Part shown: positions 33,770 to 51,284 of the stretch, piece by piece | Position numbering within the stretch: the stretch's first letter is position 1 | Layout: each line of letters starts with the position of its first letter | From: an uncultured bacterium | GTDB taxonomy: Bacteria > T1Sed10-126 | Assembly: GCA_964631325.1 (NCBI GenBank) | Contig: CAZVWJ010000002.1 | Coordinates: 5,848 to 69,847, forward strand | Direction: 5' to 3' | Length of the DNA stretch: 64,000 bases | Program-made: the position numbers and the translations under genes | Notes under the pieces: model-generated | What the model was told of the DNA's origin: nothing | What the model saw: the letters and a program-made list of their open reading frames with translations, nothing else | Databases searched by the model: none

Positions 33770-34000
33770 ATGGGATCCAAGGTTGAAGGAGTTCAAAAAA
33801 GAGTCCCACGGTTGGAACCGGGAGCTGTTCTCGCCAAACCGGTTTACAGTCCCAAAGGGTCACGGCTCTTTGATGAAAAAAAGGAGCTAACGGAGAGCGA
33901 TATTTCCCGGCTTAAAAAATGGGATATTCGCTATGTCTATATCTGCCCCGAAAAAGAACCGGAAACTTCTGACCAGACTGCCCACCCCCAGGCTTCATAA
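33770..34000 (+). CDS. Small hypothetical protein (76 aa), solitary plus-strand gene
   Basis: ORF with a GGAAAGGG RBS-like sequence about 10 nt upstream and a TATAAT box at 33715-33720. No recognisable domain. Confidence 0.3.
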   Translation: MGSKVEGVQKRVPRLEPGAVLAKPVYSPKGSRLFDEKKELTESDISRLKKWDIRYVYICPEKEPETSDQTAHPQAS

Positions 34001-34010
34001 ACTATTCCGC

Positions 34011-36797: not shown

Positions 36798-36835
36798 TTT
36801 TACAATCCATCCCTGTCAAAAAATATAAGACCTTA

Positions 36836-38183: not shown

Positions 38184-41100
38184 ATGGCTTCTAACTCGCT
38201 TAAACCCCAAAAAATTATTTTATTGCTCGGGGTCGTTTTCTGCTTTTCTGTTTTCCTTTCCCCGGCAATTTCAGCGGATAAAAGCTCACTTCGAAAAAAA
38301 CTATCCCTACCAGAGTTCAGGCTTGAAGCAGAAGAAGTATCGGGCCGTGTAAAGATAAAGACAGACACAGGCTGGGAGAAGTTAAAGGCGGGCCGAAAAA
38401 TCCAGGAGGGAGCCCGTATATCGACGGAGTCAGGTGGGACAGCGGCGCTTGCCGTCCCGGGTGTAAGCTACCTGCAGATGGATACGGCGACTAATTTAGA
38501 GGTGAACAAATTAAAGCAAGTAGCCAGAGAGCAGGGACTTTTGATCAGCGGGGAGAAAGTTCTGGAAAACAAGGTGAAGCTCAAGCTAAAACAGGGCGGG
38601 GTTCAAAATAGTCTTCGCAAACACAAAAAGGTCACCACTGAATTTGACCTGGAAACGCCCAACGCCGTGGCCGGAGTGCGCGGAACTTCCTACCGCTGTG
38701 AAGTGGATGAAACCGGCCGCACAACCTGTGGTGTCCTGGAAGGAGAGGTTAGATTTGCCAGCCTGCGGCAACCACAAAATACCCGCACCCTCAGAGAAAA
38801 CGAAAAATCCAGTCTGGCGGCTGAAGACACCGAGCCGGAAGAGCCCGAACAAATGTCCGAAAAAGAGACGGAAGAGCTGCAGAAATTCACGGACAAGGCT
38901 GAAAAGAAACTGCGGCTGAAACCTTTTGCTGATGAGCTCCAGCTAAACGACAGGGAATTTACCAGGACAGGAAAAGGGATATTTAAATTAACCTACGAAT
39001 ACAGGAAGCAACACGAATTAATTTTAAGCGGGATTGCGGGAGCCCGCGAGGAGAATGCTGAATTGGAGCTGGTTGAAGTTAACCTGGCCGGTTCGGATCT
39101 GCCGGTAGAAGGGACACAGAAATGGCAGGCCGCATTTACTATTGAGGCTCCAACTGAAGGCAAAAAGAAGACAATAAGCGGCCAGGTGCGAGCTCAAGAT
39201 AGCCTCGGCCAGCGGTCCCGTGCTTATCCGGTGCAAATTATTCTCGTGCATCCGGAGAAACAGGGGGCTTTACCGGCAAATCTATTGCCGGGTAAAGTGC
39301 CGATTAACGTGGAGACAATCGGCGGACGACCGGTAAGCCAGCTATCTTTTCCTTACCCTGTGTCCAGTAAAATATTCGACAACTATAGCTGGCAAAAAAC
39401 TTCTGATACCGAGGTACAGGCCTCCCGGCAGGGAATAAAGATCAGCGGAGCCGTAAATACGGATTCAACCGTGGCCGGAGTGGCCTACCGGTTAAGTCCG
39501 GCCCAGGAATGGCGGCTGGCAGCCGGAAAAAGTGAGTGGTCCTTTATTATCGGTAAAGAAGAACTCACCGCAACTCCTGAACTCAACCCGGAGGTCGTAG
39601 CCTGGACGGAGTCCGGACGGATAGGGACTGAAGTCAGCGCCGGACAATTAAATTACCGGCAAATAGAGACTGTATATCCGGGCGGTTACTCTCAGGGAAA
39701 AATAGAGCTTGAACTGGAGACTATAAACGAAGCCCCGGTGACCAGTTTTCCCGTCACGGTAAAAACCTCACAGTTGCGCACAAATCAGCTTGTTTTCCGG
39801 GGCCGGGCCCAGGCTGACTCTGAAATCCAGGGGGTCGCCTATCGCACGGAGGGAGGCCAGTGGCAGCAGGCTGAAGGAGCCTCTGACTGGCTGATCAAGC
39901 TCCCTCTTCCGACTTCTTCACAATCTTTAGAACTGGAAATAATTGCCTGGACAGCCGGGAAAAAAATCAGTGCGCCCCGCCGGTTCGGGCCGGTTGAATA
40001 TCAGTTTGAAGAGACAGTTCTCCCGGTTAATTTTACCCGGGGAGAAGTACCGGTAAATTTCGAAACCCTGGCCGGTAAACAGGTATCTGACCTTGAATTT
40101 CCATTTAACTTAAACAGCACTCAGTTGGACGGAGATGAAATCCAACTCACCGGCAGTGTCACCGCGGACTCGCCAATCAAGGGAGTGGCAGTCCGGGTTA
40201 ACGGAGGCAACTGGCAGCAGATAGCCGAAGGGAGCAAGCAGTGGGCTTTTACGCTTCCGGGCACAGAAAGCGGTGAGTTCACCGTAGAAGTCCGGGCCTG
40301 GACGTCCGGCCAGGTGCTTGGTGAAATACATTCCCTGGGACCGGTCAATTTTCAGGTGGTAGAGACAATCCCCCCCTCCACTTACGAATCCGGAAAAGTT
40401 AAAATTGAGTTTACCAGGGTGGCCGGATTAGATTATTCAAACGTTGAATTTCCCCTGCACACTTTCCAGGAGGACCTGGACGCCGGACAGTTGATTATTG
40501 AAGGAACTGCGGAGGGGGAAGCCACAATCGAGGGAGTGGCTTACAGCACTGACGGCGGAGCAAACTGGGAGCTGGCCGAAGGCGACGCGAACTGGAGCTT
40601 CAGTCTACCCGTGGAGGGATCAGCCGAATTTGATCAGCTCCGGGTGATTGCTTGGACCACCGCCGGAATTATTGGCGAAGCCGAAACTCTTGAAACTATC
40701 GACCACACCCAGGTCAGCTATTCGACTCACCTGCGCGATCTCTTTCAGCAGGAATGGGAAGCTTTCACCAGTGAAAACACCGAAGAAATGCTGGAATCTT
40801 ACGGCAGTAATTTTTCTTACCAGGACGCTCGGACAGGTGTGCAGAAAGAGCGGGCCGAGTTCAAAAATTTCCTGGAAACATTTTACAGCGACGTGCGCAA
40901 TCTTGCTGTCTCCTACAACGTCAACCAGGTGTTCTCCAGTCAGAACGGCGGAGAAATTACTTTTAATTTAGAATGGCGGGGCACAGCCGATGATCCCAAC
41001 CGGCCTTTTGTGATTTTCGGCGACGGCTGTGTTCACAACTACACCCGTAAAAACGACGGTTCCTTCCAGTTGACCACGTTTAAAAATTTCCCCCTGATAC

Positions 41101-41546
41101 TTTACCTGTTTCATAAGGAGGACGTGGAAATTCCGGACTTAGGTGGAATCGGAATTAGAAATCTTGCCGTCTTCAGCCGGACCGAGGACGCCGATATACT
41201 TGCTTACTGCAGGCCGGATATGCTTCAGGCAAACTACGCCACCCTGGAGCTGGGCGGCGATGTGAAAGACGGTGGACTGAAAAAATTGAGTTCTTCGGGT
41301 TTCTCCGGTGTCTCCAGTCTTCCCACCCTGGGCAGTGGTTACACCAGCGGGAGCAGTACAGTTATTCATCCGGGCGAACTATACGCAATTAATCTGCGCC
41401 ACCAGGGAGGCGGAGCTTCCTCGGCCCTGGCAAAAATCATCGAAATTACCGCCAGTCACGTTGAGGTTCAGATTATCTCCGCCCAGTCCCCACCCGGAAT
41501 AGAAGAAAAAATACAGCTCGACTACCGGGGGGTGGATCCCTTTTGA
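38184..41546 (+). CDS. Large secreted FecR-domain protein with five repeated beta-sandwich modules of about 150 aa and an NTF2-like C-terminal domain
   Basis: 1120 aa. Signal peptide (ILLLGVVFCFSVFLSPAISA), FecR-like segment (ISTESGGTAALAVPGVSYLQMD) and recurring GVAYR..GG.W..AEG...W.F.LP units. Its stop overlaps the start of the downstream beta-barrel gene. Confidence 0.7.
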   Translation: MASNSLKPQKIILLLGVVFCFSVFLSPAISADKSSLRKKLSLPEFRLEAEEVSGRVKIKTDTGWEKLKAGRKIQEGARISTESGGTAALAVPGVSYLQMDTATNLEVNKLKQVAREQGLLISGEKVLENKVKLKLKQGGVQNSLRKHKKVTTEFDLETPNAVAGVRGTSYRCEVDETGRTTCGVLEGEVRFASLRQPQNTRTLRENEKSSLAAEDTEPEEPEQMSEKETEELQKFTDKAEKKLRLKPFADELQLNDREFTRTGKGIFKLTYEYRKQHELILSGIAGAREENAELELVEVNLAGSDLPVEGTQKWQAAFTIEAPTEGKKKTISGQVRAQDSLGQRSRAYPVQIILVHPEKQGALPANLLPGKVPINVETIGGRPVSQLSFPYPVSSKIFDNYSWQKTSDTEVQASRQGIKISGAVNTDSTVAGVAYRLSPAQEWRLAAGKSEWSFIIGKEELTATPELNPEVVAWTESGRIGTEVSAGQLNYRQIETVYPGGYSQGKIELELETINEAPVTSFPVTVKTSQLRTNQLVFRGRAQADSEIQGVAYRTEGGQWQQAEGASDWLIKLPLPTSSQSLELEIIAWTAGKKISAPRRFGPVEYQFEETVLPVNFTRGEVPVNFETLAGKQVSDLEFPFNLNSTQLDGDEIQLTGSVTADSPIKGVAVRVNGGNWQQIAEGSKQWAFTLPGTESGEFTVEVRAWTSGQVLGEIHSLGPVNFQVVETIPPSTYESGKVKIEFTRVAGLDYSNVEFPLHTFQEDLDAGQLIIEGTAEGEATIEGVAYSTDGGANWELAEGDANWSFSLPVEGSAEFDQLRVIAWTTAGIIGEAETLETIDHTQVSYSTHLRDLFQQEWEAFTSENTEEMLESYGSNFSYQDARTGVQKERAEFKNFLETFYSDVRNLAVSYNVNQVFSSQNGGEITFNLEWRGTADDPNRPFVIFGDGCVHNYTRKNDGSFQLTTFKNFPLILYLFHKEDVEIPDLGGIGIRNLAVFSRTEDADILAYCRPDMLQANYATLELGGDVKDGGLKKLSSSGFSGVSSLPTLGSGYTSGSSTVIHPGELYAINLRHQGGGASSALAKIIEITASHVEVQIISAQSPPGIEEKIQLDYRGVDPF

Positions 41547-42109
41547 AATTAAACTTTAAACTGCTGGCCGGTCTGTTTGTTTTAATAGCGCTGGTGGGAA
41601 CTTTTCCGCCTGGCGCCAGGGCCGGGCTGGCCATATACTCCCCAAATTTTTCCTCTGACAGCAATCCCGGCGAATCAAACGGGGAACAGCAATCTACTCC
41701 TGAAGAAATTAGTTCTGTCCGCAAAAAACGATGGTTTATCGGTCTCACCTATCCCGGAATTACAGCGGGGTATCAGGGCAATAGTTTCGCCCTGGAACTA
41801 CGGGGCTACAGAAGCGGAAACACTACAATTTACGGCCCCCGTTTTACCAATTACGTCTACTCATTCCGGGGGGGCAATCTTTACTGGGGAATCGATCTTT
41901 ATTCAGTCAGTGAATTCGAAGGAGATTTAACCCGGGGGGACGGTTACATGGCCGGAGGTATTATCGGTCTACAAAAATACATCGGTTCCCGGTTCTCTTT
42001 CACTCTTGACTCGGGGCCCTACTACATCAAGCTGGAAGACGATCTCTCCGGGCTTGATAACAGCGGTGTTGAGTTTGTAATTAACACCGGCTTAAACATT
42101 CATTTTTAA
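41543..42109 (+). CDS. Small outer-membrane beta-barrel protein (OmpW/OmpA-like 8-strand class)
   Basis: 188 aa, signal peptide, alternating hydrophobic beta-strand pattern and a C-terminal ...LNIHF ending in Phe. Confidence 0.6.
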   Translation: MKLNFKLLAGLFVLIALVGTFPPGARAGLAIYSPNFSSDSNPGESNGEQQSTPEEISSVRKKRWFIGLTYPGITAGYQGNSFALELRGYRSGNTTIYGPRFTNYVYSFRGGNLYWGIDLYSVSEFEGDLTRGDGYMAGGIIGLQKYIGSRFSFTLDSGPYYIKLEDDLSGLDNSGVEFVINTGLNIHF

Positions 42110-42139
42110 GGCGAGGAAGTCAGGTTAGGTGAATGGCAC

Positions 42140-45100
42140 ATGACTGCTAAAAAACAAAATATCTGGTTCTGTCTGACCGCAGTATTTCTGCTGTTCTGGC
42201 TCGTTTTACCGGCCCGGTCTACAGATACTTTACCGGAAAAATATGTCTCTGCCGGCACCGATCAATTGAAAGAAAAACAGAAATACCAGCTTGCCGGTAT
42301 TTCTTTTGGCCCGGTGGAGGCGGTTGAAGAACAGGTCGAGGAGCTGGACAACAAAGCTAATGATTACTGGATAGCCCACTGGCAGGATAACAACTGTACC
42401 GGTGACGCCAGTGATCCAGAATGTGCCGGGGTCGTAAACTTCCCCCAGAAAGTGCTCGATTACTGGAAAAACCATCCACACGATAGACCGGATAGCTGGG
42501 CCGTATCAGTAAACTCCCCTTCAGCCAGCACCACTTCCAGTTCCCCGGACACGGTCGCTGAAACACACTCTAGCCCACTCTGGCGGGCTAAAACCAGTGG
42601 CGTTCTTACTTCCGCTCCGGCCGTTGATGAAGAAGGAACCGTTTACTTTGGCAGTTATGACAAAAAAGTTTATGCCCTGTATCCGGACGGGTCAGAAAAA
42701 TGGACTTTCACTACCGGTGGAGCTATCCACGCCGCCCCGGCTCTGGGAGCCGGCGACACGTTGTATGTGGCCAGTGAAGACAAATATCTCTATGCCCTGG
42801 ATACGGAAGCCGGGAACGTGTTGTGGAAATACAAAACCGCGGGGCGCCTGCACTCTTCGCCGGCCATCAGTTCCAATGGCATAATTTATGTCGGCTGTAC
42901 GGACAACAAACTGTATGCAATCCGTCCCGACAGCGACGGAGACGATGAGGGAGAGCTGGCCTGGACTTATACAACCGGTGGTCGGATAACCTCTTCCCCC
43001 ACTCTAAGCGCCGACTCTACAGTTTACGTCGGCTCCTGGGACAAAAATCTGTATGCGGTCCGTCCCGACAATAGCAATGACGGAGAAGGTGAATTAAATT
43101 GGAAAGTTTCCACCGGCGGCGAAATTAAATCATCCCCGGCTCTCGGAGCAGACGGAACTATTTATTTTGGCAGTCATGATAAACATCTTTATGCCCTCAA
43201 TTCTGACGGGACTGAACAATGGAGTTCCAACCTCGAAGGGGCAGTCTGGTCCTCACCGGTTATCGGAAGTGATTCCACTGTTTACGTCGGTTCCTGGAAC
43301 GGCAAGCTATATGCTCTCAACCACAAAGACGGCTCAACTGAGTGGACGTTTACCACCGGCGAAAGAATTGTTGCCTCTCCGCTGGTCGGAAGCAAACGGA
43401 TTTATGTCGGTTCTCACGACAATACTCTCTACGCACTTAATCCGGACACGCCCGGTGGGCCGGGAAGCTGGAAGTTCTCAACCGGGGAAGCAATTTTTGC
43501 CGGCACCAACCTCCGGGACACTTCCCTGTATGTGGTTTCAGGTGATAATTACCTTTACGCCCTTGAAGCCGACACTTCCGGCCTCGCCCAATCCAGTTGG
43601 CCAAAATTCGGCGGCAACCACAAAAATACCGGCCAGACGCCCGAACAACTACCGGAAGAATACAGCGGTCCGACCTGGTATGTGAACGACGATACCACAG
43701 CCGGCGACGTCTATACTTCAGCCCCGGGTTCAAATGAAAATCCCGGCAGTCCGGACGCCCCCTTCCTTACTATTTCCCGGGCTCTGGAAGCTGCCACCAC
43801 CGGCGATACTATAATGATCGATGCCGGCACCTACGGGGAAACGGTAGCCATTGACACCAACTCCCTGGCCCTGGTCGGTGCTGACTCCAGTCCGGCCGGG
43901 ACTGTCATAGATGCCGGCGACAGTTCCGCCGCCAGTAAATTGATTGTTCTTCGTTCGGATACCGTCACCAACCTTCAAATCAAAAATTTAAGGGTGGCCA
44001 ACGGATACTGGGGATTAATCCTTTACAACACAGATAACTCACTCGTAGAAAACGTTATGGCCACTTCTAACAAATCAGTGGGAATCGGTTTAGTAAACGG
44101 CTCTGAGTTTAACACCCTCAGCGAGGTCAGCACTTCCAATAACGATTCTGGTGGGCTGACGATAGATTCTGCAAACAACTTAGTTAAAAACAGTAATTTT
44201 TCAAAAAATGGGGATGACGGTTTAAGTATTGCCCTGTCGGCTACCGCCAACATAGTTTATAACAACCTGGTGAGCAATAACGATCAAGCCGGAATTAACG
44301 TCGAGGGAAGCGATAATGAAATTCGGCAAAACCAAATTATTAATAATAATCTCAGCACTACCAGTAATGATGGAGGGCTGGAATTAGGTGACGCAGAGAA
44401 CGGAGAAATCGCCGAAAACAACCTTGTGGTGCGGAATTTAATCAAGGACAACTATAATGGCATCGAGTTGAGAGGAACTAACCAAAATTTAATCCACAGC
44501 AACGAACTGGTAAATAATGCATATCATCTTTATCTTGAAGACACCGCCACTACCTTTAATGATACCTTTACCAAGAACAACCTGACCTCAGCCGGAGATT
44601 CACTGGTAATGGCTGTAGGCTTTTCAGGAACAGAGGCCAAACTGCTCAGAAACTGGTGGGGGATGACAGATGAAATCGCTATTCAGTCAAAAATCCAGGG
44701 ACCTCTGGCGGATGCAGTTGTATTTCAACCTTACCGATTAAACAAAGTGGACACAGGAACCGGAGCCGATACACTTGCTCCGGCAACACCGGTGGCTGAC
44801 ACCGTTGCTGGCAGCCACAGTGGAATAGCCCTGAGCTGGAACCAGGTTAACACTGACGAAAACAACAACCCGCTGACAGATTTTGCCGAATACAGGATCT
44901 ATAAAACTACTTCCGGGACTGAAACCGACTGGAAAAATAATGCACTCATGGTCAGCTCTATCAGCAGTGTTTCCGACACTGATTACGTAGATACTTCCGT
45001 CACCCCCGGCGAAACTTATTACTATCGAATTACTGCTGTAGACAGCGCACCGGCAGAAAACGAATCATTTTTTAGCAGTACCTTAATAGCCCAGGCCAAA

Positions 45101-48100
45101 CCCTGGTCCGGTCCCACCTGGTATGTAAACGATAACTATACGGGGGACGAAATTTACACCTCCACCGCCGGTTCAGACACTAACACCGGCGGCCCCTCGG
45201 ATCCCTTCCGAACCATTTCAGAAGCAATGAGTCATGTCGCCGCCGAAGATACTATCCTGGTCGACGCCGGCACTTACGGTGAAACTGTCGCCTTTATAAC
45301 TGACGGCCTCACTCTGGCCGGAGCCGGGTCAACCGCTACTAGCTTCGATTTCGGGGACAGCTCGACTGTCACTGCAGCCGTTGGTATTTATTCTGACACC
45401 CACAGCGGTCTGTTAATAAAAAATCTGAGCATTCGCAATTATATGATCGGTCTGTCTTTCAGCGGTGTTAGCGCTTCCCGGGTAGAAAACGTAACTGTTG
45501 AAAATTGTGGTGAAAGTGGGATGTACCTCTGGAATTCCGGCGGGGTTGTATTTAACCAGGTTGTTTCCAGGAATAATATTTTTGACGGACTTACCGTAGA
45601 TGGTTCAAAAAATATCAATGTTATTTCCAGTCGATTTACGGGCAACGACTCCAACGGACTTGTGTTTATTCAGTCGGACACAGCACTTGTTAAAGAAAAT
45701 CATCTCACCGAAAATAGCCAGGCCGGCCTTTTATTGGACAATACCTCAACTTCCCTGGCCAGCAATAACCTGATCACTGGCAATAACTCCGGTATGGAGT
45801 TAATTGGCGGATTCTTCAACGAAGTAATTCAGAACGATATCCGCAACAATACTAACTACCAGGTTTACAACACTACTTTTGACAACCTGTTTCGGAAAAA
45901 CAACCTCGTAGCCTCAACAACTAATCCGGACAGCGTAGTCAAGGATACTTCCTCGGGAATTGATTTTATCTACAACTGGTGGGGAACAACCGCCCACACA
46001 GCAATTGATACAAAGCTAACTGGTTTCGGGAGCTATGAACCCTACCGGCTTGGCCAAGTCGACACAGCCCCCGGAGCTGACACTATGGCATTCGCCTCAC
46101 CCATTGTAGACACAGCAGTGGTACTCGGTTCCGATACCGTAGAAGTTCGCTGGCAACAGATAACTACAAATGAAGAGGGCAGCGCGATGAGCGCTGATTT
46201 CAACAGTTATGTTATTTATCGTTCCACCTCCGATACCGTCACCGACTGGAAGCTGTATGAAATAGCCAGCCTTGCCGGTTCAATGAGCGACACTGATTAT
46301 ATTGATACCGATGTAACTCCCGGCCAAACTTACTACTATCGAATTACCGCCCTGGATGATCATACCCTGGACGGCGGCGACGGCACGGCTAAATTTGACA
46401 ATGAATCCTATTTCAGCAGTACAATCGCCGCCACCCCAACCCATTCCGGCCCCACCTGGTATGTGAACGATAACGATACCGCCGGAGACGTCTACACTTC
46501 AGCAGTTGGTTCCGAGACCCACACCGGCGGCCCCTCGGATCCCTTTCGAACCATTTCAGAAGCAATGAACCACGTCTCCGCCGGAGATACTATCCTGGTC
46601 GACGCCGGCACCTACGGCGAGACGGTGGCTATCGACACCAACTCCCTGGCCCTGGTCGGGGCTGATTCTCAAAGCACGATAATTGATTCACCCGGAGCTA
46701 ATGTCAATCTATACGCTTCAAACGCAGATAATATCTCCATTCGAAAATTGGGAGTCCAGAATAGTTCAGTTGGAATTGAACTTGATTCGATAACAAACTC
46801 CCTGGTTGAAAACGTTCACGTGGACACTGCAACAAATAATTCCTTGTATCTCTATCTTTCTGATTCTAATACAATTCGCTCTTCCTATTTTGGGCAGAGC
46901 GATAATGACCAGGTTATGCTCTATACTTCCAGCAATAACTTGATAGAACACAACATGGCTGAGAACGGTTGGGGACGAAGCTATTACCTGCAGGCTTCCT
47001 CTAATGACAATAAAATAATTAACAATCTGGCCCGGGCCGGACAATCCGGAATCGTTGTGCGCGGTTCCGATAATGTTCTGGTAGCGGATAATACAATCAG
47101 GGATATGTCGGGTTTCGGTATTAGCGCCCAGTTCTATCCGGTTAATTTAAGGGTCTTGAGAAATACCCTCTATAACGTGGGCAGTGTCAACCTGGAGTTA
47201 GAAGCTGACGGTTGTTACGTCGCTCAGAACACGGTGGACTCTCCCGGTAGCTGGGCTGTACAAACAAACGGTGGAGGAACAATTACAAAAAACAATATAT
47301 ACACAGGAACAATACTACCGGACAGCGGTGCTCTTAACTCAGGAGACTCTGTCGTTGACCTAACTCGCAACTGGTGGAATACCACTGACGAAAATCTGGT
47401 AGCCCGAAAAATTTACAATTCCGGCGCCGGAACCACAATATACAGCCCTTATCGGCTCGGCTTAGTAGATACCGGCGTCGGTGCCGACACTGTTGCTCCC
47501 GCCACTCCCGTTGCCGACACCGCCTTTGTGGTCGGCAGTGACACAATTGAAGTCCGCTGGCAGGAGGTCACCGCAGACGAAGACGGCAGCAGCCTCGATT
47601 TTAACCGTTACAATGTCCACCGTTCTAAATACGACACGGAAACCGATTGGTTAAGCAACACTTCTTCCAAAGGGTCGATAATGAGCGCCGGGGATACCAG
47701 TATTACAGACGATAACAATCTCATTCCCGGCCAGACCTACTATTACCGGGTCCTGGCCAAGGACGCTTCCTCGCCGGCAAACTCCTCTTTCTTCAGCGAT
47801 TCAATGAGTGTAACGCTACCTGCCTGGAACGGTCCTACCTGGTACGTAAATGATAACGACACCACCGGCGATGTTCATACCTCCGCCGTCGGTTCTGACT
47901 CCAACACCGGTGGACCAGACGATCCCTTCCGGACAATTTCCTATGCTCTTTCCCAGGTTTCAGCCGGGGACACCGTGCTCGTGGATGCCGGCACCTACGG
48001 AGCAACCGGCGAAACTATTACTCTAAGTGTTAACGATCTTGCCCTTGTCGGTGCTGACTCTGCAACCACGATACTTGATTTTGGAGATACTTCACCAGGA

Positions 48101-49201
48101 GCGGGGGCCGGTTTGTATGCATTAAACAGGCAGAATTTACAGATCCGCGATCTGGCAGTTAAAAATTCTTATCGCAATATCTACTGGGATGGAGTTACTT
48201 ATTCCAATATCGACAACGTCCGGGTTACAAATAGCGGTTACGTTGGTGTAACCCTGCTGGGCTCCGATACTAACGTAATTAAAAACAGTGACCTTTCAAA
48301 CAATTACGGCTACGGGATTTCATTCAATTCTGCCAACGATAATCAACTTAGAAATTCCAGCTTAACTTCAAATTATAATGATATTGAAATTAATTCCAGT
48401 TCTGACAATACAATAAGCGAAAATCACCTGACCGGGTCAGGGGCTGATGCTATCATTCTCTCTGTAGCCAGCCAAAACAAAATTTCAAATAATGTCATTG
48501 AAAATAGCCAGGGTGATGGAATTTATATTGCTAATTCTCAATTCAATACAATCGTCCAGAATGAAATCAAGAATAACAACGATTACCAAATTTATCAGAC
48601 CGGGACCACCGGAGAGATAAATCTCGCCACCAAAAATAACATCGCTGCTTCGGCCACCAACCCCGACTCGCTGGCTTACAACGACGTTACTTCTGATACA
48701 ACCAATTTTACTTACAATTACTGGAACAGCACCGACTCCGCCGTCATCAGCAGTGGGTTAGCCGGCGCAGGAAATACTCTCCAGGTCCCCTATCTATTGC
48801 GTAAAGTAGATACCGGCGTCGGCGCCGACACTAATCCGCCCGCAATACCGGCTAATGTCGTTGCTGACACCGTAGCCGGAGGAACAATCACCATAAGCTG
48901 GGACGAGGTTACTACTAACCAGGACGGCAGCACCATTGGTGACTTTGAAAAATACACGGTTTACCGGCTCAGAGCAGATACAGTTACCGACATAAAGAAT
49001 AACTACAATGATGTAAGTTATACCTCCGGCGGTGCCACTGATACTTCCGTTACCAACTCCCCCGGTGGACTTGCTTCGGGGGATACTTACTATTATGTCA
49101 TCACTGCTATTGACAATCCTCTCACGGACGGTGGAGATGGGACCTCCGACTTTATAAACGAGTCCTATTTCAGCACTATGATTAGTGTAGTCGCCCCGTA
49201 A
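42140..49201 (+). CDS. Giant (2353 aa) secreted surface protein: PQQ-type beta-propeller followed by four tandem [right-handed parallel beta-helix + fibronectin-III] modules
   Basis: Signal peptide, then 8 or more PQQ-like blades (YALxxDGSEKWTF.TGG.I.SSPA). Four modules follow, each opening GPTWYVNDNDT.GDVYTSA.GS...GGP.DPFRTIS.A......GDTILVDAGTYGETVA and containing NxxxxN beta-helix rungs and an FN3 segment (Y.IYR......W......DTDY.DT.V.PG.TYYYRI.A.D). Confidence 0.8.
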   Translation: MTAKKQNIWFCLTAVFLLFWLVLPARSTDTLPEKYVSAGTDQLKEKQKYQLAGISFGPVEAVEEQVEELDNKANDYWIAHWQDNNCTGDASDPECAGVVNFPQKVLDYWKNHPHDRPDSWAVSVNSPSASTTSSSPDTVAETHSSPLWRAKTSGVLTSAPAVDEEGTVYFGSYDKKVYALYPDGSEKWTFTTGGAIHAAPALGAGDTLYVASEDKYLYALDTEAGNVLWKYKTAGRLHSSPAISSNGIIYVGCTDNKLYAIRPDSDGDDEGELAWTYTTGGRITSSPTLSADSTVYVGSWDKNLYAVRPDNSNDGEGELNWKVSTGGEIKSSPALGADGTIYFGSHDKHLYALNSDGTEQWSSNLEGAVWSSPVIGSDSTVYVGSWNGKLYALNHKDGSTEWTFTTGERIVASPLVGSKRIYVGSHDNTLYALNPDTPGGPGSWKFSTGEAIFAGTNLRDTSLYVVSGDNYLYALEADTSGLAQSSWPKFGGNHKNTGQTPEQLPEEYSGPTWYVNDDTTAGDVYTSAPGSNENPGSPDAPFLTISRALEAATTGDTIMIDAGTYGETVAIDTNSLALVGADSSPAGTVIDAGDSSAASKLIVLRSDTVTNLQIKNLRVANGYWGLILYNTDNSLVENVMATSNKSVGIGLVNGSEFNTLSEVSTSNNDSGGLTIDSANNLVKNSNFSKNGDDGLSIALSATANIVYNNLVSNNDQAGINVEGSDNEIRQNQIINNNLSTTSNDGGLELGDAENGEIAENNLVVRNLIKDNYNGIELRGTNQNLIHSNELVNNAYHLYLEDTATTFNDTFTKNNLTSAGDSLVMAVGFSGTEAKLLRNWWGMTDEIAIQSKIQGPLADAVVFQPYRLNKVDTGTGADTLAPATPVADTVAGSHSGIALSWNQVNTDENNNPLTDFAEYRIYKTTSGTETDWKNNALMVSSISSVSDTDYVDTSVTPGETYYYRITAVDSAPAENESFFSSTLIAQAKPWSGPTWYVNDNYTGDEIYTSTAGSDTNTGGPSDPFRTISEAMSHVAAEDTILVDAGTYGETVAFITDGLTLAGAGSTATSFDFGDSSTVTAAVGIYSDTHSGLLIKNLSIRNYMIGLSFSGVSASRVENVTVENCGESGMYLWNSGGVVFNQVVSRNNIFDGLTVDGSKNINVISSRFTGNDSNGLVFIQSDTALVKENHLTENSQAGLLLDNTSTSLASNNLITGNNSGMELIGGFFNEVIQNDIRNNTNYQVYNTTFDNLFRKNNLVASTTNPDSVVKDTSSGIDFIYNWWGTTAHTAIDTKLTGFGSYEPYRLGQVDTAPGADTMAFASPIVDTAVVLGSDTVEVRWQQITTNEEGSAMSADFNSYVIYRSTSDTVTDWKLYEIASLAGSMSDTDYIDTDVTPGQTYYYRITALDDHTLDGGDGTAKFDNESYFSSTIAATPTHSGPTWYVNDNDTAGDVYTSAVGSETHTGGPSDPFRTISEAMNHVSAGDTILVDAGTYGETVAIDTNSLALVGADSQSTIIDSPGANVNLYASNADNISIRKLGVQNSSVGIELDSITNSLVENVHVDTATNNSLYLYLSDSNTIRSSYFGQSDNDQVMLYTSSNNLIEHNMAENGWGRSYYLQASSNDNKIINNLARAGQSGIVVRGSDNVLVADNTIRDMSGFGISAQFYPVNLRVLRNTLYNVGSVNLELEADGCYVAQNTVDSPGSWAVQTNGGGTITKNNIYTGTILPDSGALNSGDSVVDLTRNWWNTTDENLVARKIYNSGAGTTIYSPYRLGLVDTGVGADTVAPATPVADTAFVVGSDTIEVRWQEVTADEDGSSLDFNRYNVHRSKYDTETDWLSNTSSKGSIMSAGDTSITDDNNLIPGQTYYYRVLAKDASSPANSSFFSDSMSVTLPAWNGPTWYVNDNDTTGDVHTSAVGSDSNTGGPDDPFRTISYALSQVSAGDTVLVDAGTYGATGETITLSVNDLALVGADSATTILDFGDTSPGAGAGLYALNRQNLQIRDLAVKNSYRNIYWDGVTYSNIDNVRVTNSGYVGVTLLGSDTNVIKNSDLSNNYGYGISFNSANDNQLRNSSLTSNYNDIEINSSSDNTISENHLTGSGADAIILSVASQNKISNNVIENSQGDGIYIANSQFNTIVQNEIKNNNDYQIYQTGTTGEINLATKNNIAASATNPDSLAYNDVTSDTTNFTYNYWNSTDSAVISSGLAGAGNTLQVPYLLRKVDTGVGADTNPPAIPANVVADTVAGGTITISWDEVTTNQDGSTIGDFEKYTVYRLRADTVTDIKNNYNDVSYTSGGATDTSVTNSPGGLASGDTYYYVITAIDNPLTDGGDGTSDFINESYFSTMISVVAP
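43669..49198 (+). repeat. Four tandem intragenic repeats of about 1.35 kb (module starts near 43669, 45111, 46449 and 47832)
   Basis: Nucleotide-level identity between modules, for example 46449-46680 against 43669-43900 and a near-identical 45-nt run at 45182 and 46520. This indicates recent internal duplication. Confidence 0.7.
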
Positions 49202-49268
49202 ACTAAAAAAATCTTCAAAAACAATCAAACTCTAATTTCTATAAATGTGTGCAGATGTTAGATGTTTG

Positions 49269-49457
49269 TTTAACCTAAATTGAGCGATTCTATGGTGAAG
49301 AGAAGAACATATTGCTCTCCGATGGATTTTTGTATTCTTTAGGGTTCAGGATGAACCCGTATTAAAGAATACATACCTCAGAGCAGTCCGGATGGCTGCG
49401 AGAATGAATCCGGAGAGTTATGTGTTCTTCGATAATAATCGCTCAATTTAGGTTTAA
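49269..49457. repeat. Nested-palindrome structured element of about 190 nt (candidate complex terminator, ncRNA or MITE) with perfect 20-bp terminal inverted repeats
   Basis: TTAACCTAAATTGAGCGATT at 49269-49289 pairs with AATCGCTCAATTTAGGTTTAA at 49437-49457. Inner complementary pairs include gaagaacatattgctctccg / cggagagttatgtgttcttc, gtattctttag..ttaaagaatac, ggttcaggatgaacc and tccggat..atccgga. A T-rich run follows. Confidence 0.6.
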
Positions 49458-49488
49458 TTATATTTTTCTTTTGTCAGGATAAATATTT

Positions 49489-50310
49489 ATGAACATTTTC
49501 AGTGACTTGCGTAAATTTCTCTTTATTGTATTGACTTTTCTTGCCTTTACAGCCCTTCCCGCCAGAGCACAATCTCCGGGCCATTTTACTCTCGGCTACG
49601 GAATCTCCAACTTTGAATACACAGAACCCAAGATGACGGAATCCGGCACACTCCAGCACCTGCAGGCAAAATACGAAAAATTTAAAGAACATCATTATAT
49701 TGGTATGGATGGCAACCTCTGGGCCGGTAACCTGAAATACGATGGAGAAACACTCGAAGAAAATCCTCGTCCTGTTACCACGGAAACTGATGATTTTATC
49801 CTTACAACGAATTTACGGGTGGGCACACCACAGCCTCGGAAAAGCGGAGTTCTTATTCCTTACCTGGGATTAGGATACAGGTACTGGAACAATGTAATCA
49901 CTGAAAGCAATATAACCGCTCGCACTGAACGAACCACCCAGTATTTCTACTCACCACTTGGTTTTCTACTGGCAAGCAATTCTGCGAGATTCGGCAAAAC
50001 AATTCTTAAAATGGAATATCTTTACTTCTGGGCGGGAAAAGTAACCACTCAATTTGGTAACGCACCAGAGTTAAATAATGACCAAAACCAGGGAAAAGGC
50101 GGAAGGATTGCGCTAACATTTTTACTCGGAGGTCAACAGAAAATTAGTCACAGCCTGAGTATATTTTTCAACTACTGGGACATTGAGCCTTCGGAATCCG
50201 ATTCTATCCTGGTGGATATCGATAACGACTCCACAAAGGAAAACGTGGCTTTTTATGAACCGGCCAACAGCACGGCAATTATCGGAGCTCAGTTAAATAT
50301 TACGTTTTAG
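49489..50310 (+). CDS. Outer-membrane beta-barrel protein (porin-like, 273 aa)
   Basis: Signal peptide (FIVLTFLAFTALPARAQ), amphipathic beta-strand periodicity and a C-terminal ...QLNITF ending in Phe. Confidence 0.6.
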   Translation: MNIFSDLRKFLFIVLTFLAFTALPARAQSPGHFTLGYGISNFEYTEPKMTESGTLQHLQAKYEKFKEHHYIGMDGNLWAGNLKYDGETLEENPRPVTTETDDFILTTNLRVGTPQPRKSGVLIPYLGLGYRYWNNVITESNITARTERTTQYFYSPLGFLLASNSARFGKTILKMEYLYFWAGKVTTQFGNAPELNNDQNQGKGGRIALTFLLGGQQKISHSLSIFFNYWDIEPSESDSILVDIDNDSTKENVAFYEPANSTAIIGAQLNITF

Positions 50311-51284
50311 ATATCCGCCGGATCAGCCGGTTCAACCTGGGAAGGCTTAATATTACTTAAAACCCGCTGAAGTCCCCGGACGTGTGCCCCCAATTGCCGG
50401 CGGGCCTTGAGGTTTGAGTGGGGATCATCACTGGCTTGGCTGTGCCGGACTTTAAGCCGGTCATATTCACTTCTGATTTTACTTAAGCGATCCCGGGGAA
50501 TTCCTTCCTTAATTATACTCTTGAGATGAGTATACAATTTCTTTGCCGCGCCGGCAGCAGCTTTTAAATCCGAGTAATCAACCGCATAGTCATAATCATG
50601 GTATTCGCTTTCATGCGGGGATTTAAACTTAATCTCGACCAGGCCCGCAGTTAGTATTTCCCGGGCCGTAGCCTGTAGTTCCTCGGCCATTTTTGGCGGT
50701 CGGACCTGCAAATCCTTACTCCTGGGAGTGGCCAGCAGGTTTTCTAATTTTTCTCCTGACATTTTCATCCCTTTGGAAAGACCGGCCACATCCGGGTTCA
50801 AAGTTTTGCATATATTTCTATGGCCCCGCCACTTTTCTTCTTCCAGAAAATGTAAAAGAAGCAGAGCTGCATCATAAAGTAAGTTTTGAGTGCTTTTCAG
50901 ACAGGCTAAATCTTCCGTTGTGACTCGTACCCGCCGGGACAAAACCTCAAGGATCTTCCGACGGAATTTGTGACTTTTTTTCAGCAGGTTATCGAACTGT
51001 TTTTCTCCAAGTCGCAAGCAAACTGTATCTATTCTGGCTTTGACCGCGGCTGACCGGTCAGATTCCTCTCCCAGCAGGGCCATTTCTCCGACCAGTTCTC
51101 CCGGCCCAAGGGAAGTTATAAAACTAACTTCATCATCTTCCTTGAGCACTTCCACAAGTCCCTCCTGGATAATATAAAAACTGTCCCCGTGGTCCCCTTC
51201 TTTAAATAAATATTCGTCGGGTTCATAGTTTTGCCGATACTCTTCAAAACCTTCAAGAAGTGAATTTTTCACTTGTCTCACCAA
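50307..51284 (-). CDS. Cyclic-nucleotide-binding domain protein with uncharacterised C-terminal domain
   Basis: N-terminal cNMP-binding fold (YLFKEGDHGDSFYIIQEGLVEV...GPGELVGEMALL...RSAAVKA). C-terminal roughly 200 aa have no recognised motif. Confidence 0.65.
   Translation of the reverse strand: MVRQVKNSLLEGFEEYRQNYEPDEYLFKEGDHGDSFYIIQEGLVEVLKEDDEVSFITSLGPGELVGEMALLGEESDRSAAVKARIDTVCLRLGEKQFDNLLKKSHKFRRKILEVLSRRVRVTTEDLACLKSTQNLLYDAALLLLHFLEEEKWRGHRNICKTLNPDVAGLSKGMKMSGEKLENLLATPRSKDLQVRPPKMAEELQATAREILTAGLVEIKFKSPHESEYHDYDYAVDYSDLKAAAGAAKKLYTHLKSIIKEGIPRDRLSKIRSEYDRLKVRHSQASDDPHSNLKARRQLGAHVRGLQRVLSNIKPSQVEPADPADI

What the first reader, a model, noticed from the sequence alone, without database searches (positions are those of the whole stretch)
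43669..49198. Four recently duplicated modules of about 1.35 kb inside the 7 kb giant gene
Module starts at about 43669, 45111, 46449 and 47832 share long stretches of near-identical nucleotide sequence. Examples are ggtccgacctggtatgtgaacgacgat / ggccccacctggtatgtgaacgataacgat, and an almost exact 45-nt run accggcggcccctcggatccct(t)tccgaaccatttcagaagcaatga in modules 2 and 3. The FN3-like tails (cccggc[gc]aaacttattactatcgaattac...) recur as well. High DNA-level identity, not just protein-level, indicates recent intragenic duplication or gene conversion. This makes the locus prone to recombination and copy-number variation and to assembly collapse. It is also characteristic of phase- or antigen-variable adhesins.
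Basis: seen in the sequence. Interest (0 to 1): 0.55.

Follow-up and report, generated by a model that had tools for sequence, protein, structure and literature searches.

The report
Old four-module beta-helix surface protein gene
The 7 kb gene does contain four repeated ~1.4 kb modules, but they are ancient, strongly diverged copies (about 40% protein identity) with only a few short patches of DNA-level similarity at the module boundaries, so this is an ordinary large modular surface protein and not a recently duplicated, unstable or phase-variable adhesin.

Summary
The four modules are real. "Near-identical" is overstated. Whole modules are 47-53% identical in DNA and 39-45% in protein, synonymous sites are saturated, the longest exact repeat is 27 nt, and no 31-mer is shared. 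DNA similarity is confined to module junctions (FN3 tail plus beta-helix N-cap). Three short tracts stand out statistically. The best is 82-93 nt at 91-93% identity between modules 2 and 3, with dS 0.19 against at least 0.95 for every other pair. Each module is a right-handed beta-helix (NosD/DUF1565 type) followed by an FN3 domain, and the array sits behind a signal peptide and a PQQ-like beta-propeller. Homologues carry 2 to at least 9 modules. Module cores group across proteins, whereas junctions group within proteins. So this is an ancient array with occasional short-patch gene conversion at junctions, not a recent duplication. I found no simple-sequence tracts, invertible promoter or silent cassettes. 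In passing: the hairpin just downstream (49269-49457) is an IS1380-family MITE that is widespread in metagenomes.

The parts
42140..49201 (+). Giant gene, 2353 aa. It encodes a secreted modular protein: signal peptide, N-terminal region, PQQ-like beta-propeller, then four units of beta-helix plus FN3.
   Evidence: ORF list and translation. Pfam: Beta-prop_ACSF4 2.8e-71, Beta_helix 2.9e-61, NosD 6.4e-48, PQQ_2 5.7e-37, DUF1565 4.6e-24, fn3 2e-7. The identical protein is in the public collection as P0001, a singleton from a 126,872-bp NCBI contig.
42140..42220 (+). Predicted Sec-type signal peptide (MTAKKQNIWFCLTAVFLLFWLVLPARS).
   Evidence: Read directly from the translation: a basic N-terminus, a hydrophobic core and an A-R-S end. 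This is an inference; no signal-peptide predictor was run.
42572..43579 (+). PQQ-like / BamB-like beta-propeller (aa ~145-480). Its blades show weak DNA-level repeats.
   Evidence: Pfam PF13570 and PF13360. Repeat family D2: five 44-nt copies at 61-77% identity.
43667..45109 (+). Module 1 (481 aa): beta-helix N-cap, beta-helix core, linker, FN3.
   Evidence: Motif positions, module alignment, Pfam. Its core groups with the first module of the L001 homologue at 85% bootstrap.
45110..46447 (+). Module 2 (446 aa). The AlphaFold model shows a right-handed beta-helix over residues 1-290, a helix at 296-302 and an FN3-like sandwich at about 333-416.
   Evidence: Model pLDDT 85.7, pTM 0.84. Foldseek PDB matches: AlgE4 A-module 2pyg (1e-8), Pel9A 1ru4, phage tailspikes, GH120 3vst, and the FN3 domain 1x4x.
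46448..47830 (+). Module 3 (461 aa). Its N-cap is a mosaic: roughly the first 55 codons resemble module 2, and codons ~62-76 resemble module 1.
   Evidence: Codon alignment and exact runs, permutation test.
47831..49198 (+). Module 4 (456 aa). The protein ends directly after its FN3 domain, with no recognisable anchor or sorting domain.
45184..45265 (+). Putative gene-conversion tract, module-2 copy. Its partner is 46522-46603 in module 3.
   Evidence: 82 nt at 93% identity, permutation p<2e-4. Over alignment codons 24-55: 85 of 93 nt identical, dS 0.19 and dN 0.06, against dS 0.95-3.75 for the other five pairs. In the first 80 alignment columns, 33 of 53 identical residues use the same codon against 18.4 expected, p=2.5e-5.
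46522..46603 (+). Putative gene-conversion tract, module-3 copy. Its partner is 45184-45265.
   Evidence: Same as above.
43853..43884 (+). Short high-identity tract in module 1. Its partner is 46634-46665 in module 3.
   Evidence: 32 nt at 97% identity, including a 26-nt exact run, permutation p<2e-4.
46634..46665 (+). Short high-identity tract in module 3. Its partner is 43853-43884 in module 1.
44974..45033 (+). FN3-tail tract of module 1. Its partner is 46288-46347 in module 2.
   Evidence: 60 nt at 82% identity, p=0.003. Repeat family D6: 63 nt at 81%.
46288..46347 (+). FN3-tail tract of module 2. Its partner is 44974-45033 in module 1.
38184..41546 (+). Upstream gene in the same orientation, encoding a 1120-aa FecR-domain plus Big_7 protein. 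The neighbourhood is conserved in the homologous locus.
   Evidence: Pfam FecR 3.6e-11, Big_7 9.8e-6. In L001, FecR and Big_7 genes precede the homologous giant gene.
41543..42109 (+). Small conserved gene (188 aa) immediately upstream. The product ends in ...NIHF, which looks like an outer-membrane beta-barrel terminus.
   Evidence: 47% identity (E 2e-49) to the 183-aa ORF at the same position in L001. No Pfam or NCBIfam hit. The outer-membrane reading is an inference from the C-terminal Phe.

Best explanation
The gene encodes a large secreted, probably cell-surface, glycan-binding or glycan-processing protein of an uncultured, deep-branching bacterium. Behind a signal peptide and a PQQ-like beta-propeller it carries four tandem modules. 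Each module is a right-handed parallel beta-helix (CASH/NosD/DUF1565 type) followed by a conserved linker and an FN3 domain.

The array arose by tandem duplication long ago, before this lineage split from those carrying the homologues P0008 (locus L001) and P0020. Since then the beta-helix cores have diverged to 23-35% protein identity and probably have different ligand specificities. The boundary segments (FN3 tail, linker, beta-helix N-cap) stay similar for two reasons. First, they are under strong purifying selection, because they include a generic beta-helix capping motif. Second, occasional short-patch gene conversion, in tracts of about 30-100 nt, homogenises them within an array.

Shown: the architecture and fold; saturation of synonymous sites; the restriction of DNA similarity to junctions; three statistically supported tracts; conflicting trees for cores and junctions; variable module number among homologues.

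Inferred: surface location, glycan binding, different specificity per module, and gene conversion as the process behind the tracts.
For: - Architecture: Pfam. AlphaFold model of module 2, pLDDT 85.7. Foldseek matches to polysaccharide-active beta-helices and to FN3.
- Age: module nt identity 47-53% and aa identity 39-45%. Same-codon use equals the codon-usage expectation in the cores, 150 against 151. dS above 2 or saturated.
- Core identity: 28.6% within the window protein and 28.0% within L001, against 26.9% between proteins. Core tree: W1+A1 85%, W3+B2 71%, all-window clade 0%.
- Junction homogenisation, window: N-cap identity 67.8% within the window protein against 53.7% between proteins. 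Same-codon observed/expected is 1.39 in the N-cap against 0.99 in the core.
- Junction homogenisation, L001: FN3 identity 65.5% within against 41.1% between. The all-L001 FN3 clade has 100% support. N-cap clades A6+A7 100%, A4+A8 99%, B1+B2 84%. Same-codon ratio 1.29-1.30 at junctions against 1.03 in the core.
- Tracts.
- Family-wide pattern and module counts of 2 to at least 9.
- The N-cap is a generic motif shared with the GH120 xylosidase 3vst.
- Conserved operon with FecR/Big_7 and a small outer-membrane-like protein.
Against: - The core phylogeny rests on very divergent sequences (23-36% identity), neighbour-joining only, and 85% and 71% bootstrap. Positional orthology is therefore suggestive rather than proven.
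- The segments for the same-codon tests were chosen after looking at the data. The p=2.5e-5 for the M2-M3 N-cap should be discounted for about 18 implicit tests.
- The permutation test assumes exchangeable sites, and conserved protein segments can cluster matches.
- dS at the L001 junctions is still about 1-2, so most junction similarity may be plain purifying selection.
- No functional data exist. No conserved catalytic residues are visible in the cores: the invariant positions are mostly ladder-type N/S/T/L/I. Binding versus catalysis is therefore undecided.
- No anchor or sorting signal was identified, so surface attachment is an inference.
Confidence: 0.65

Rival explanations
1. The modules are recent duplicates or are being actively homogenised. 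The gene is therefore a recombination-prone, copy-number-variable, possibly phase- or antigen-variable adhesin (a 'periscope'-type repeat protein), and the four-copy structure may be mis-assembled.
For: - Four tandem modules with a regular period.
- A 46-nt run with one mismatch and an 82-nt tract at 93% between modules 2 and 3.
- Module number differs among homologues, from 2 to at least 9.
- The homologous array in L001 contains a scaffold gap.
- The best word-index hits to the module profile are proteins truncated at contig ends.
Against: - Whole-module aa identity is 39-45% and nt identity 47-53%, with dS saturated.
- No shared 31-mer; longest exact repeat 27 nt.
- TRF finds nothing.
- The gene fails the 80% repeat-identity criterion used to define periscope proteins, and it obeys the 'below 50% between adjacent domains' rule of ordinary multidomain proteins (PMC8201768).
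- No simple-sequence tracts, no promoter-flanking inverted repeats and no silent copies in the window.
- The host is an environmental, deep-branching bacterium with no known host association.
Confidence: 0.03
2. Lineage-specific amplification followed by fast core divergence. Each organism expanded its own array from one or two ancestral modules. The beta-helix cores then diverged quickly under diversifying or relaxed selection, so the modules are younger than protein identity suggests. Junction similarity within a protein would then reflect common ancestry and not gene conversion.
For: - Junction segments are more similar within proteins than between them: window N-cap 67.8% against 53.7%, L001 FN3 65.5% against 41.1%. 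The all-L001 FN3 clade has 100% support.
- Module numbers differ widely between homologues.
- Core dN is very high, 0.7-1.0.
- Core identities form a nearly star-like matrix at 21-36%, where phylogenetic signal is weak.
Against: - Synonymous sites are saturated in the cores and in most junction segments too, so the copies are old whatever the selection on the protein.
- The cores show no excess of within-protein similarity (28.6% against 26.9%).
- W1+A1 (85%) and W3+B2 (71%) group across organisms, and the all-window clade has 0% support.
- The M2-M3 tract is far younger (dS 0.19) than its flanks, which needs a later exchange event.
Confidence: 0.15
3. No gene conversion at all. The DNA-level similarity at junctions is only the by-product of strong purifying selection on a conserved capping motif and the FN3 fold, combined with codon bias. 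The three tracts are chance clusters.
For: - The N-cap is a generic beta-helix motif that is conserved even in an unrelated GH120 enzyme and across the whole family.
- 36 of 75 N-cap columns are invariant among the four modules.
- For most pairs and segments the same-codon counts are near expectation.
- dS at the L001 junctions is still 1-2.
- The segments tested were chosen after looking at the data.
Against: - In the M2-M3 tract, synonymous sites match as well: dS 0.19 against 0.95-3.75 for the other five pairs over the same, equally constrained codons.
- 33 of 53 same-codon matches against 18.4 expected, p=2.5e-5.
- Permutation over polymorphic sites only gives p<2e-4 for two pairs.
- Protein trees of junctions and cores conflict with high support.
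Confidence: 0.15

Closest known systems
AlgE-type modular mannuronan C-5 epimerases of Azotobacter (A-modules plus R-modules)
   Same: These are secreted, elongated proteins built from one or two right-handed beta-helix A-modules alternating with small beta-rich accessory modules. Different A-modules have different specificities (PMC12269086). The AlgE4 A-module is among the best structural matches to module 2 (2pyg, E 1e-8).
   Different: - The window's modules lack the AlgE catalytic signature: no Y..D.H or DPH motif in any module.
- The accessory domain is FN3, not an R-module.
- There are four beta-helices here, and up to at least 9 in homologues, against one or two in AlgE.
- An N-terminal beta-propeller is present.
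- Sequence identity in the structural alignment is only 15-18%.
Periscope proteins and other variable-length repeat adhesins (SasG, Rib, Sgo_0707, Esp, CdrA)
   Same: They are large secreted bacterial proteins with tandem arrays of folded domains, and the number of repeats differs between related proteins (PMC8201768).
   Different: Periscope repeats are defined operationally as over 50 aa with at least 80% identity. They have high DNA identity that drives recombination, and their length differs between strains. Here modules are 39-45% identical in protein and 47-53% in DNA with saturated synonymous sites. Module number differs only between very distant homologues.
DUF1565 / NosD / CASH right-handed beta-helix surface proteins (for example the Leptospira LIC10774 family and archaeal 'cell surface proteins' with a PQQ propeller)
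   Same: The same Pfam families score above their cut-offs (PF13229, PF05048, PF07602). The N-terminal PQQ-like propeller is shared with many giant 'cell surface' proteins of bacteria and Methanosarcina. There is a weak match to the LIC10774 surface-protein model.
   Different: The NCBIfam family-specific models all score far below their cut-offs; only the generic para_beta_helix repeat model passes. The specific module, with a GPTWYVND N-cap, a PYRLGxVDTGxGADT linker and FN3, is found mainly in unnamed giant proteins of uncultured organisms.
Phage tailspike and depolymerase beta-helices, pectate lyase Pel9A, GH120/GH136/GH87 hydrolases
   Same: The fold of the module core (Foldseek E 1e-7 to 1e-5) and the N-cap motif (3vst). 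All of these bind or cleave polysaccharides along the helix groove.
   Different: Sequence identity is 9-18%. No conserved catalytic residues were identified. The tailspikes are trimeric and single-copy, not tandem monomeric arrays.

Membership tests
Periscope / variable-length tandem-repeat adhesins | [quoted passage not shown] | tested here: not met
   Modules are 446-481 aa, but pairwise identity is 39-45%. The criterion is quoted.
Periscope / variable-length tandem-repeat adhesins | High DNA identity between repeats, able to support intragenic homologous recombination | tested here: not met
   Nucleotide identity 47-53%. Longest exact repeat 27 nt, and no shared 31-mer.
Periscope / variable-length tandem-repeat adhesins | Repeat number varies between closely related strains | not testable with these tools
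   No close relative exists in any collection searched. Only distant homologues, at about 35% identity, differ in number: 2, 4 and at least 9.
Phase-variable or antigenically variable surface protein loci | Simple-sequence repeat tract in the promoter or the 5' coding region | tested here: not met
   No homopolymer of 7 nt or more and no 2-9-nt unit repeat inside the gene. The flanks carry only isolated 7-nt runs.
Phase-variable or antigenically variable surface protein loci | Invertible promoter flanked by inverted repeats, with a nearby site-specific recombinase | tested here: not met
   No inverted repeat brackets the upstream region. The neighbouring genes are FecR/Big_7, a small outer-membrane-like protein, an outer-membrane beta-barrel protein and a cNMP-binding protein. 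The only strong inverted repeat lies downstream and is a MITE.
Phase-variable or antigenically variable surface protein loci | Silent donor cassettes homologous to the expressed gene | tested here: not met
   tblastn and blastn of the modules against the whole 64-kb window find nothing outside 42140-49201. The rest of the genome could not be searched.
Right-handed parallel beta-helix (Pfam Beta_helix PF13229 / NosD PF05048 / DUF1565 PF07602; CASH-type) | Profile match above the curated threshold | tested here: met
   206.1 bits against a cut-off of 25.9, 163.4 against 23.6, and 85.6 against 20.3.
Right-handed parallel beta-helix (Pfam Beta_helix PF13229 / NosD PF05048 / DUF1565 PF07602; CASH-type) | Predicted fold is a right-handed beta-helix | tested here: met
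   The model has pLDDT of 90 or more over most of residues 21-250, with regular three-strand coils. The top Foldseek hits are all beta-helix proteins at probability 1.00.
Fibronectin type III domain | Profile match above threshold and a beta-sandwich fold | tested here: met
   Pfam fn3 scores 31.5 bits against a cut-off of 25, as a whole-protein score with weak individual stretches. The tail of the model matches human FN3 1x4x with target-normalised TM 0.68.
AlgE-type mannuronan C-5 epimerase | A-module beta-helix fold | tested here: met
   2pyg/2pyh E 1e-8 to 2e-7, target-normalised TM about 0.5.
AlgE-type mannuronan C-5 epimerase | Catalytic tyrosine/aspartate/histidine motif of the A-module. 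Tyr149 is the essential residue in PMC12269086; the YG(F/I)DPH(D/E) form of the motif is recalled from my own knowledge. | tested here: not met
   No DPH or Y..D.H in any of the four modules. Tyr149 is cited.
AlgE-type mannuronan C-5 epimerase | R-modules (calcium-binding repeat modules) following the A-modules | tested here: not met
   The domain after each helix is FN3. Pfam returns no RTX or calcium-binding repeat family.
PQQ-like / BamB-like beta-propeller | Profile match above threshold | tested here: met
   PF13570 241.1 bits against a cut-off of 133, and PF13360 128 against 27.6. The BamB equivalog models score far below their cut-offs, so this protein has the propeller fold but is not BamB.

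The most novel reading that the evidence does not exclude
The conserved junction segments (FN3 tail, the invariant PYRLGxVDTGxGADT linker, and the beta-helix N-cap) might be more than structural connectors. They could act as recombination 'handles' that let whole beta-helix cores be exchanged, gained or lost between modules and between paralogous giant genes. That would give this family of uncultured-bacterial surface proteins a cassette-shuffling way to diversify glycan specificity. The short conversion tracts and the 2 to at least 9 module range would then be the footprints of that process.
Probability: 0.07. Interest if true: 0.55.

Novelty: new member of a known kind. Interest (0 to 1): 0.2.

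Why it matters
It matters mainly as a correction. A regular repeat period and a few striking shared oligonucleotides do not show recent duplication. Here the conserved strings encode a generic beta-helix capping motif and FN3 core residues, and synonymous sites show that the copies are ancient. The locus can therefore be trusted as assembled, and it should not be annotated as a phase-variable or length-variable adhesin.

There are two modest positive results. First, a family of giant proteins with a propeller and multiple beta-helix/FN3 modules in uncultured bacteria shows different evolutionary histories for module cores (old, orthologous across organisms) and module junctions (homogenised within each protein). 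That is a clean small example of segmental concerted evolution. Second, the four cores are so different from each other that the protein probably presents four distinct glycan-binding or glycan-processing surfaces, which could be tested biochemically.

Tried and rejected
- Tandem Repeats Finder on 41000-50500 at minimum score 30 found nothing, because the copies are too divergent.
- The look-up of encoding contigs has no record for the window protein, for P0001 or for P0020, so the source sample and P0020's gene context could not be recovered.
- Scans for close relatives gave only 24-43% partial matches in genome contigs and nothing in metagenome contigs.
- The taxon search with fumarase gave no hit above 62% identity. 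The named neighbours are scattered (WOR-3, Caldisericota, Bipolaricaulia, Thermoplasmata), so the organism stays unplaced.
- The word-indexed profile search returned only 7 hits and wrongly suggested that the module is rare. The exhaustive HMM search found 8414 proteins at E<=1e-30. I rejected my interim 'rare family' idea.
- A full-text literature search for DUF1565 together with beta-helix returned nothing.
- A sequence search of the PDB found only the N-cap match to GH120.
- The NCBIfam family models (BamB, NosD, LIC10774, AfsK) all score far below their cut-offs, so I rejected them as memberships.
- I considered and rejected AlgE-type catalysis because the motif is absent.
- I considered an integron attC site or an invertible promoter for the downstream inverted repeat. 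I rejected both in favour of a MITE once the 5-bp target-site duplications and an IS1380 transposase-bearing full-length copy turned up. Rfam had no match for that hairpin.
- HMM-envelope counting of modules under-counts arrays with long cores, so I replaced it with motif-based splitting. That method still misses some tails, for example the window's fourth FN3, which reads YYYVIT.
Full report
1. THE OBSERVATION

The region lies inside a single ORF, 42140..49201 on the + strand, encoding 2353 aa. The motif GPTWYVND occurs four times, at aa 510, 991, 1437 and 1898, which corresponds to nt 43667, 45110, 46448 and 47831. They define modules of 1443, 1338, 1383 and 1368 nt.

The 'almost exact 45-nt run' is 46 nt with one C/T difference between modules 2 and 3. 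The repeat finder sees the same four-copy register: family D1 has 218 nt at 63-78% identity with spacings of 1443, 1338 and 1383 nt. The periodic four-module structure is therefore real.

2. HOW SIMILAR THE MODULES ARE

I aligned the four modules as protein and threaded the codons back onto the alignment.

| Measure (whole modules) | Value |
|---|---|
| Protein identity | 39-45% |
| Nucleotide identity | 47-53% |
| Third-position identity (28.6% expected from composition) | 32-39% |
| NG86 dS | above 2 or saturated |
| 60-nt windows at 80% identity or more | 0-7% |
| 60-nt windows at 90% identity or more | 0-3.6% |
| Longest exact repeat in the gene | 27 nt |
| Shared 31-mers between modules | none |

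At columns where two modules have the same amino acid, they use the same codon about as often as the gene's codon usage predicts. Summed over the six pairs, the counts are:

| Region | Same codon observed | Expected | Ratio |
|---|---|---|---|
| Beta-helix core | 150 | 151 | 0.99 |
| Linker + FN3 | 140 | 132 | 1.06 |
| First 80 columns (N-cap) | 144 | 103 | 1.39 |

Tandem Repeats Finder reports nothing. A sensitive blastn self-comparison finds similarity only at or near the module boundaries. The best hit is 73.5% over 347 nt (44974-45291 vs 46288-46629). The other hits between modules are 66-77% over about 45-250 nt, plus one 39-nt hit at 87%. The roughly 900-nt beta-helix cores give no nucleotide hit at all.

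Its result is protein-level periodicity throughout and nucleotide-level periodicity only at the boundaries. 'High DNA-level identity' is therefore not an accurate description of the modules as a whole.

3. WHAT DOES EXCEED CHANCE

I ran a GENECONV-style test: the maximal-scoring run of matches over polymorphic sites only, with 5000 permutations. It singles out three tracts.

| Pair | Coordinates | Length | Identity | p |
|---|---|---|---|---|
| M2-M3 | 45184-45265 / 46522-46603 | 82 nt | 93% | <2e-4 |
| M1-M3 | 43853-43884 / 46634-46665 | 32 nt | 97% | <2e-4 |
| M1-M2 | 44974-45033 / 46288-46347 | 60 nt | 82% | 0.003 |

Over alignment codons 24-55, M2 and M3 share 85 of 93 nt, with dS 0.19 and dN 0.06. 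The other five module pairs have dS 0.95-3.75 over the same, equally constrained codons. In the first 80 columns, M2 and M3 use the same codon at 33 of 53 identical residues, against 18.4 expected (p=2.5e-5, before allowing for roughly 18 implicit tests).

The N-cap of module 3 is a mosaic. Its first part resembles module 2 and a later part resembles module 1. The most economical reading is short-patch gene conversion. A dS of 0.19 means that even this event is not very recent.

4. WHAT THE GENE ENCODES

Pfam gives a PQQ-like beta-propeller (PF13570 2.8e-71; PF13360) at aa ~145-480. It is followed by Beta_helix (2.9e-61), NosD (6.4e-48) and DUF1565 (4.6e-24) matches in every module, and by fn3 (2e-7).

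An AlphaFold model of module 2, built on an 11-sequence module alignment, is confident (pLDDT 85.7, pTM 0.84). It shows a regular beta-helix over residues 1-290, a short helix, a low-confidence linker at 314-323, and a beta-sandwich. Foldseek against the PDB returns DHS dehydratase 8wm1 as the top hit (E 4.9e-9). The hits that follow it include:
- the AlgE4 mannuronan epimerase A-module;
- phage tailspikes and depolymerases;
- pectate lyase Pel9A;
- the GH120, GH136 and GH87 hydrolases;
- AlgG.

The tail of the model matches a human FN3 domain.

The only sequence-level PDB hit is the N-cap motif, shared with the GH120 xylosidase 3vst.

The protein starts with a Sec-type signal peptide. It is acidic, rich in S/T/N/G/D and nearly free of Cys. 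No module has the AlgE catalytic motif, and the residues invariant in the cores are mostly ladder-type N/S/T/L/I. I therefore regard it as a secreted, probably surface-exposed, multivalent glycan-binding or glycan-processing protein. Whether it binds or catalyses is undecided.

5. CONTEXT AND RELATIVES

The flanking genes are ordinary chromosomal genes: fumarase, malic enzyme, CCA-adding enzyme and transporters. Upstream there are a sulfotransferase and a Wzy-like gene.

The organism is deep-branching. Its fumarase is at most 62% identical to anything in 5.8 billion proteins, and the named neighbours are scattered across candidate phyla. The exact protein is a singleton in the database. No close relative was found in the genome or metagenome scans, so strain comparison is impossible.

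Two homologues share the whole architecture at about 35% identity. P0020 has 2 modules. P0008 sits on contig L001, where the gene is interrupted by a scaffold gap inside module 3 and continues to the contig end. That gives at least 9 modules. Synteny is conserved: FecR, Big_7, and a small ORF that is 47% identical to the window's 188-aa ORF and ends in ...NIHF, followed by the giant gene.

An exhaustive profile search shows that the module family is large, with 8414 proteins at E<=1e-30. It includes many giants of 4000-7700 aa with several full-length modules.

6. AGE AND MODE OF EVOLUTION

I compared 13 complete modules: W1-4 from the window, A1, A2 and A4-8 from L001, and B1-2 from P0020. 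Mean protein identities by region are as follows.

| Region | Within window protein | Within L001 protein | Between proteins |
|---|---|---|---|
| Beta-helix core | 28.6% | 28.0% | 26.9% |
| N-cap | 67.8% | 54.9% | 53.7% |
| Linker + FN3 | 44.3% | 65.5% | 41.1% |

Bootstrapped neighbour-joining trees disagree between regions.
- Cores pair across organisms: W1+A1 at 85% (both are the first module of their array) and W3+B2 at 71%. An all-window clade has 0% support.
- N-caps pair within proteins: A6+A7 100%, A4+A8 99%, B1+B2 84%.
- In the linker-FN3 region, all L001 modules form a 100% clade.

In L001 the same-codon excess is 1.29-1.30 at the junctions and 1.03 in the cores, although junction dS is still about 1-2.

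The pattern holds across 13 further family members that have at least two complete modules. Within a protein, N-cap identity averages 41-80% (maximum 87%) and FN3 identity 38-79% (maximum 95%), while core identity averages 28-53%.

Together this supports an old array whose cores predate the divergence of these organisms, with junction segments that are both strongly constrained and occasionally homogenised within an array. The alternative is lineage-specific amplification with very fast core divergence. It cannot be fully excluded, because the core phylogeny rests on 23-36% identity. It is disfavoured by the saturated synonymous sites and by the cross-organism core pairs.

Assembly collapse needs repeats longer than the assembler's k-mer or the reads. 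Here the longest exact repeat is 27 nt, so the four-copy structure is very unlikely to be an artefact. The L001 array has a scaffold gap, but its longest exact repeat is only 34 nt, so that gap is not clearly caused by repeats.

Efficient homologous recombination between modules is also unlikely at this level of identity. From general knowledge, the minimal efficient processing segment in E. coli is in the 20-30 bp range, so the 25-27-nt runs are at best marginal substrates.

For phase or antigenic variation I looked for three things. There are no simple-sequence tracts in the gene. No inverted repeats surround the promoter, and no recombinase lies nearby. There are no silent module copies elsewhere in the window.

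It is defined operationally by tandem repeats over 50 aa with at least 80% identity and by length variation between strains. The same paper notes that ordinary multidomain proteins keep adjacent domains below 50% identity (PMC8201768). This protein follows the ordinary rule.

8. COMPARISON WITH KNOWN SYSTEMS

By architecture, the closest characterised analogue is the AlgE family of modular epimerases. They have one or two beta-helix A-modules with different specificities, alternating with small accessory modules (PMC12269086). Membership fails on the catalytic motif and on the accessory module type.

At the fold level each module belongs to the CASH/NosD/DUF1565 beta-helix superfamily plus FN3, and both memberships were tested and met.

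I classify the finding as a new member of a known kind, with low interest. The segmental concerted evolution is a tidy observation but not a surprising one.

9. SIDE FINDING

The 287-nt spacer between this gene and the next ORF (49489) contains a 21-nt inverted repeat with arms 147 nt apart. As RNA the element would fold into a very stable nested hairpin, with dG -86.8 kcal/mol and z = -9.7. It has no Rfam match.

One arm has at least 120 exact matches in metagenome contigs from many environments. In those loci a 16-nt terminal inverted repeat (CCTAAATTGAGCGATT) brackets unrelated interiors; paired elements are 59-401 nt long, with a mode of 159 nt. The element is flanked by a directly repeated 5-mer, mostly TTTAA and occasionally TTCTA or TAATA.

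In locus L029 the arms are 1735 nt apart and enclose a 490-aa IS1380-family transposase. It matches NF033539 at E 2.2e-52 with 178.1 bits, just under the cut-off of 180, and PF13701 above its cut-off. Two other loci keep transposase remnants.

The window element is therefore a MITE of an IS1380-family insertion sequence. Its body spans 49274-49452 and the TTTAA duplications lie at 49269-49273 and 49453-49457. No transposase is present in the window, and the interior of this copy matches none of the 120 fetched loci. Whether it affects termination of the giant gene's transcript or expression of the downstream outer-membrane protein gene is unknown.

Noticed in passing
window 49269-49457 (intergenic region between the giant gene's stop at 49201 and the ORF starting at 49489): A 179-nt MITE with 16-nt terminal inverted repeats (CCTAAATTGAGCGATT / AATCGCTCAATTTAGG) and a TTTAA target-site duplication. 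It folds into a very stable hairpin (dG -86.8 kcal/mol, z -9.7). The arm has at least 120 exact matches in metagenome contigs, around interiors of several unrelated families. A 1735-nt version in L029 encodes an IS1380-family transposase. The MITE ends 31 nt upstream of the next gene's start codon and is followed by a T-rich stretch, so it might act as a terminator or an RNA-stabilising hairpin.
   Followed up: yes
L001 5741-19693 (GCA_042219765.1, contig JBDGPI010000044.1): The homologous giant gene is annotated as two ORFs (2026 aa, partial, and 2609 aa) only because of a 10-N scaffold gap at 11819-11828 inside its third module. Read through, it has at least 9 beta-helix-FN3 modules and runs off the contig end. 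Its FN3 segments are strongly homogenised (65.5% mean identity, with a 100% clade), unlike those of the window gene.
   Followed up: partly
window: the linker of each module, for example aa 311-328 of module 2 (about nt 46040-46093), and the equivalent positions in modules 1, 3 and 4: A linker motif, PYRLGxVDTGxGADTxAP, lies between the beta-helix and FN3. In the first 11-module alignment (window plus L001) L314, D318, T319, A323, D324 and T325 are invariant, and the motif recurs across the distant giant family members. AlphaFold nevertheless models it with pLDDT below 50. Such strong conservation in an apparently flexible linker suggests a metal-binding, processing or modification site. Its function is unknown.
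   Followed up: no
window 38184-42109 and 49489-50310: The giant gene appears to sit in a conserved operon with a 1120-aa FecR-domain/Big_7 protein and a 188-aa protein ending in ...NIHF. The latter is 47% identical to the ORF at the same position in L001, has no Pfam family, and looks like a small outer-membrane beta-barrel. A second putative outer-membrane beta-barrel gene follows downstream; its OMP_b-brl and Autotransporter matches are weak and below the Pfam cut-offs.
   Followed up: partly
window 42632-43314: Within the N-terminal beta-propeller, five blade segments share a 44-nt DNA repeat at 61-77% identity (...GTTTAYGTCGGC...GACAAAAA.CT.TATGC), and blastn finds 75-81% hits of 48-80 nt between blades. 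This is the same kind of motif-driven DNA similarity as at the module junctions.
   Followed up: no
window 31395-37804: Upstream on the opposite strand are a Wzy_C/O-antigen-ligase-like membrane protein (31395-33308) and a sulfotransferase (36836-37804). This hints at a cell-envelope polysaccharide neighbourhood that could be related to the glycan-binding role proposed for the giant protein.
   Followed up: no
databases (method note): The word-indexed profile search returned only 7 hits for the module profile and did not list the query's own protein. The exhaustive HMM search found 8414 proteins at E<=1e-30, including many multi-module giants. Rarity judged from the indexed search alone would have been wrong.
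   Followed up: yes
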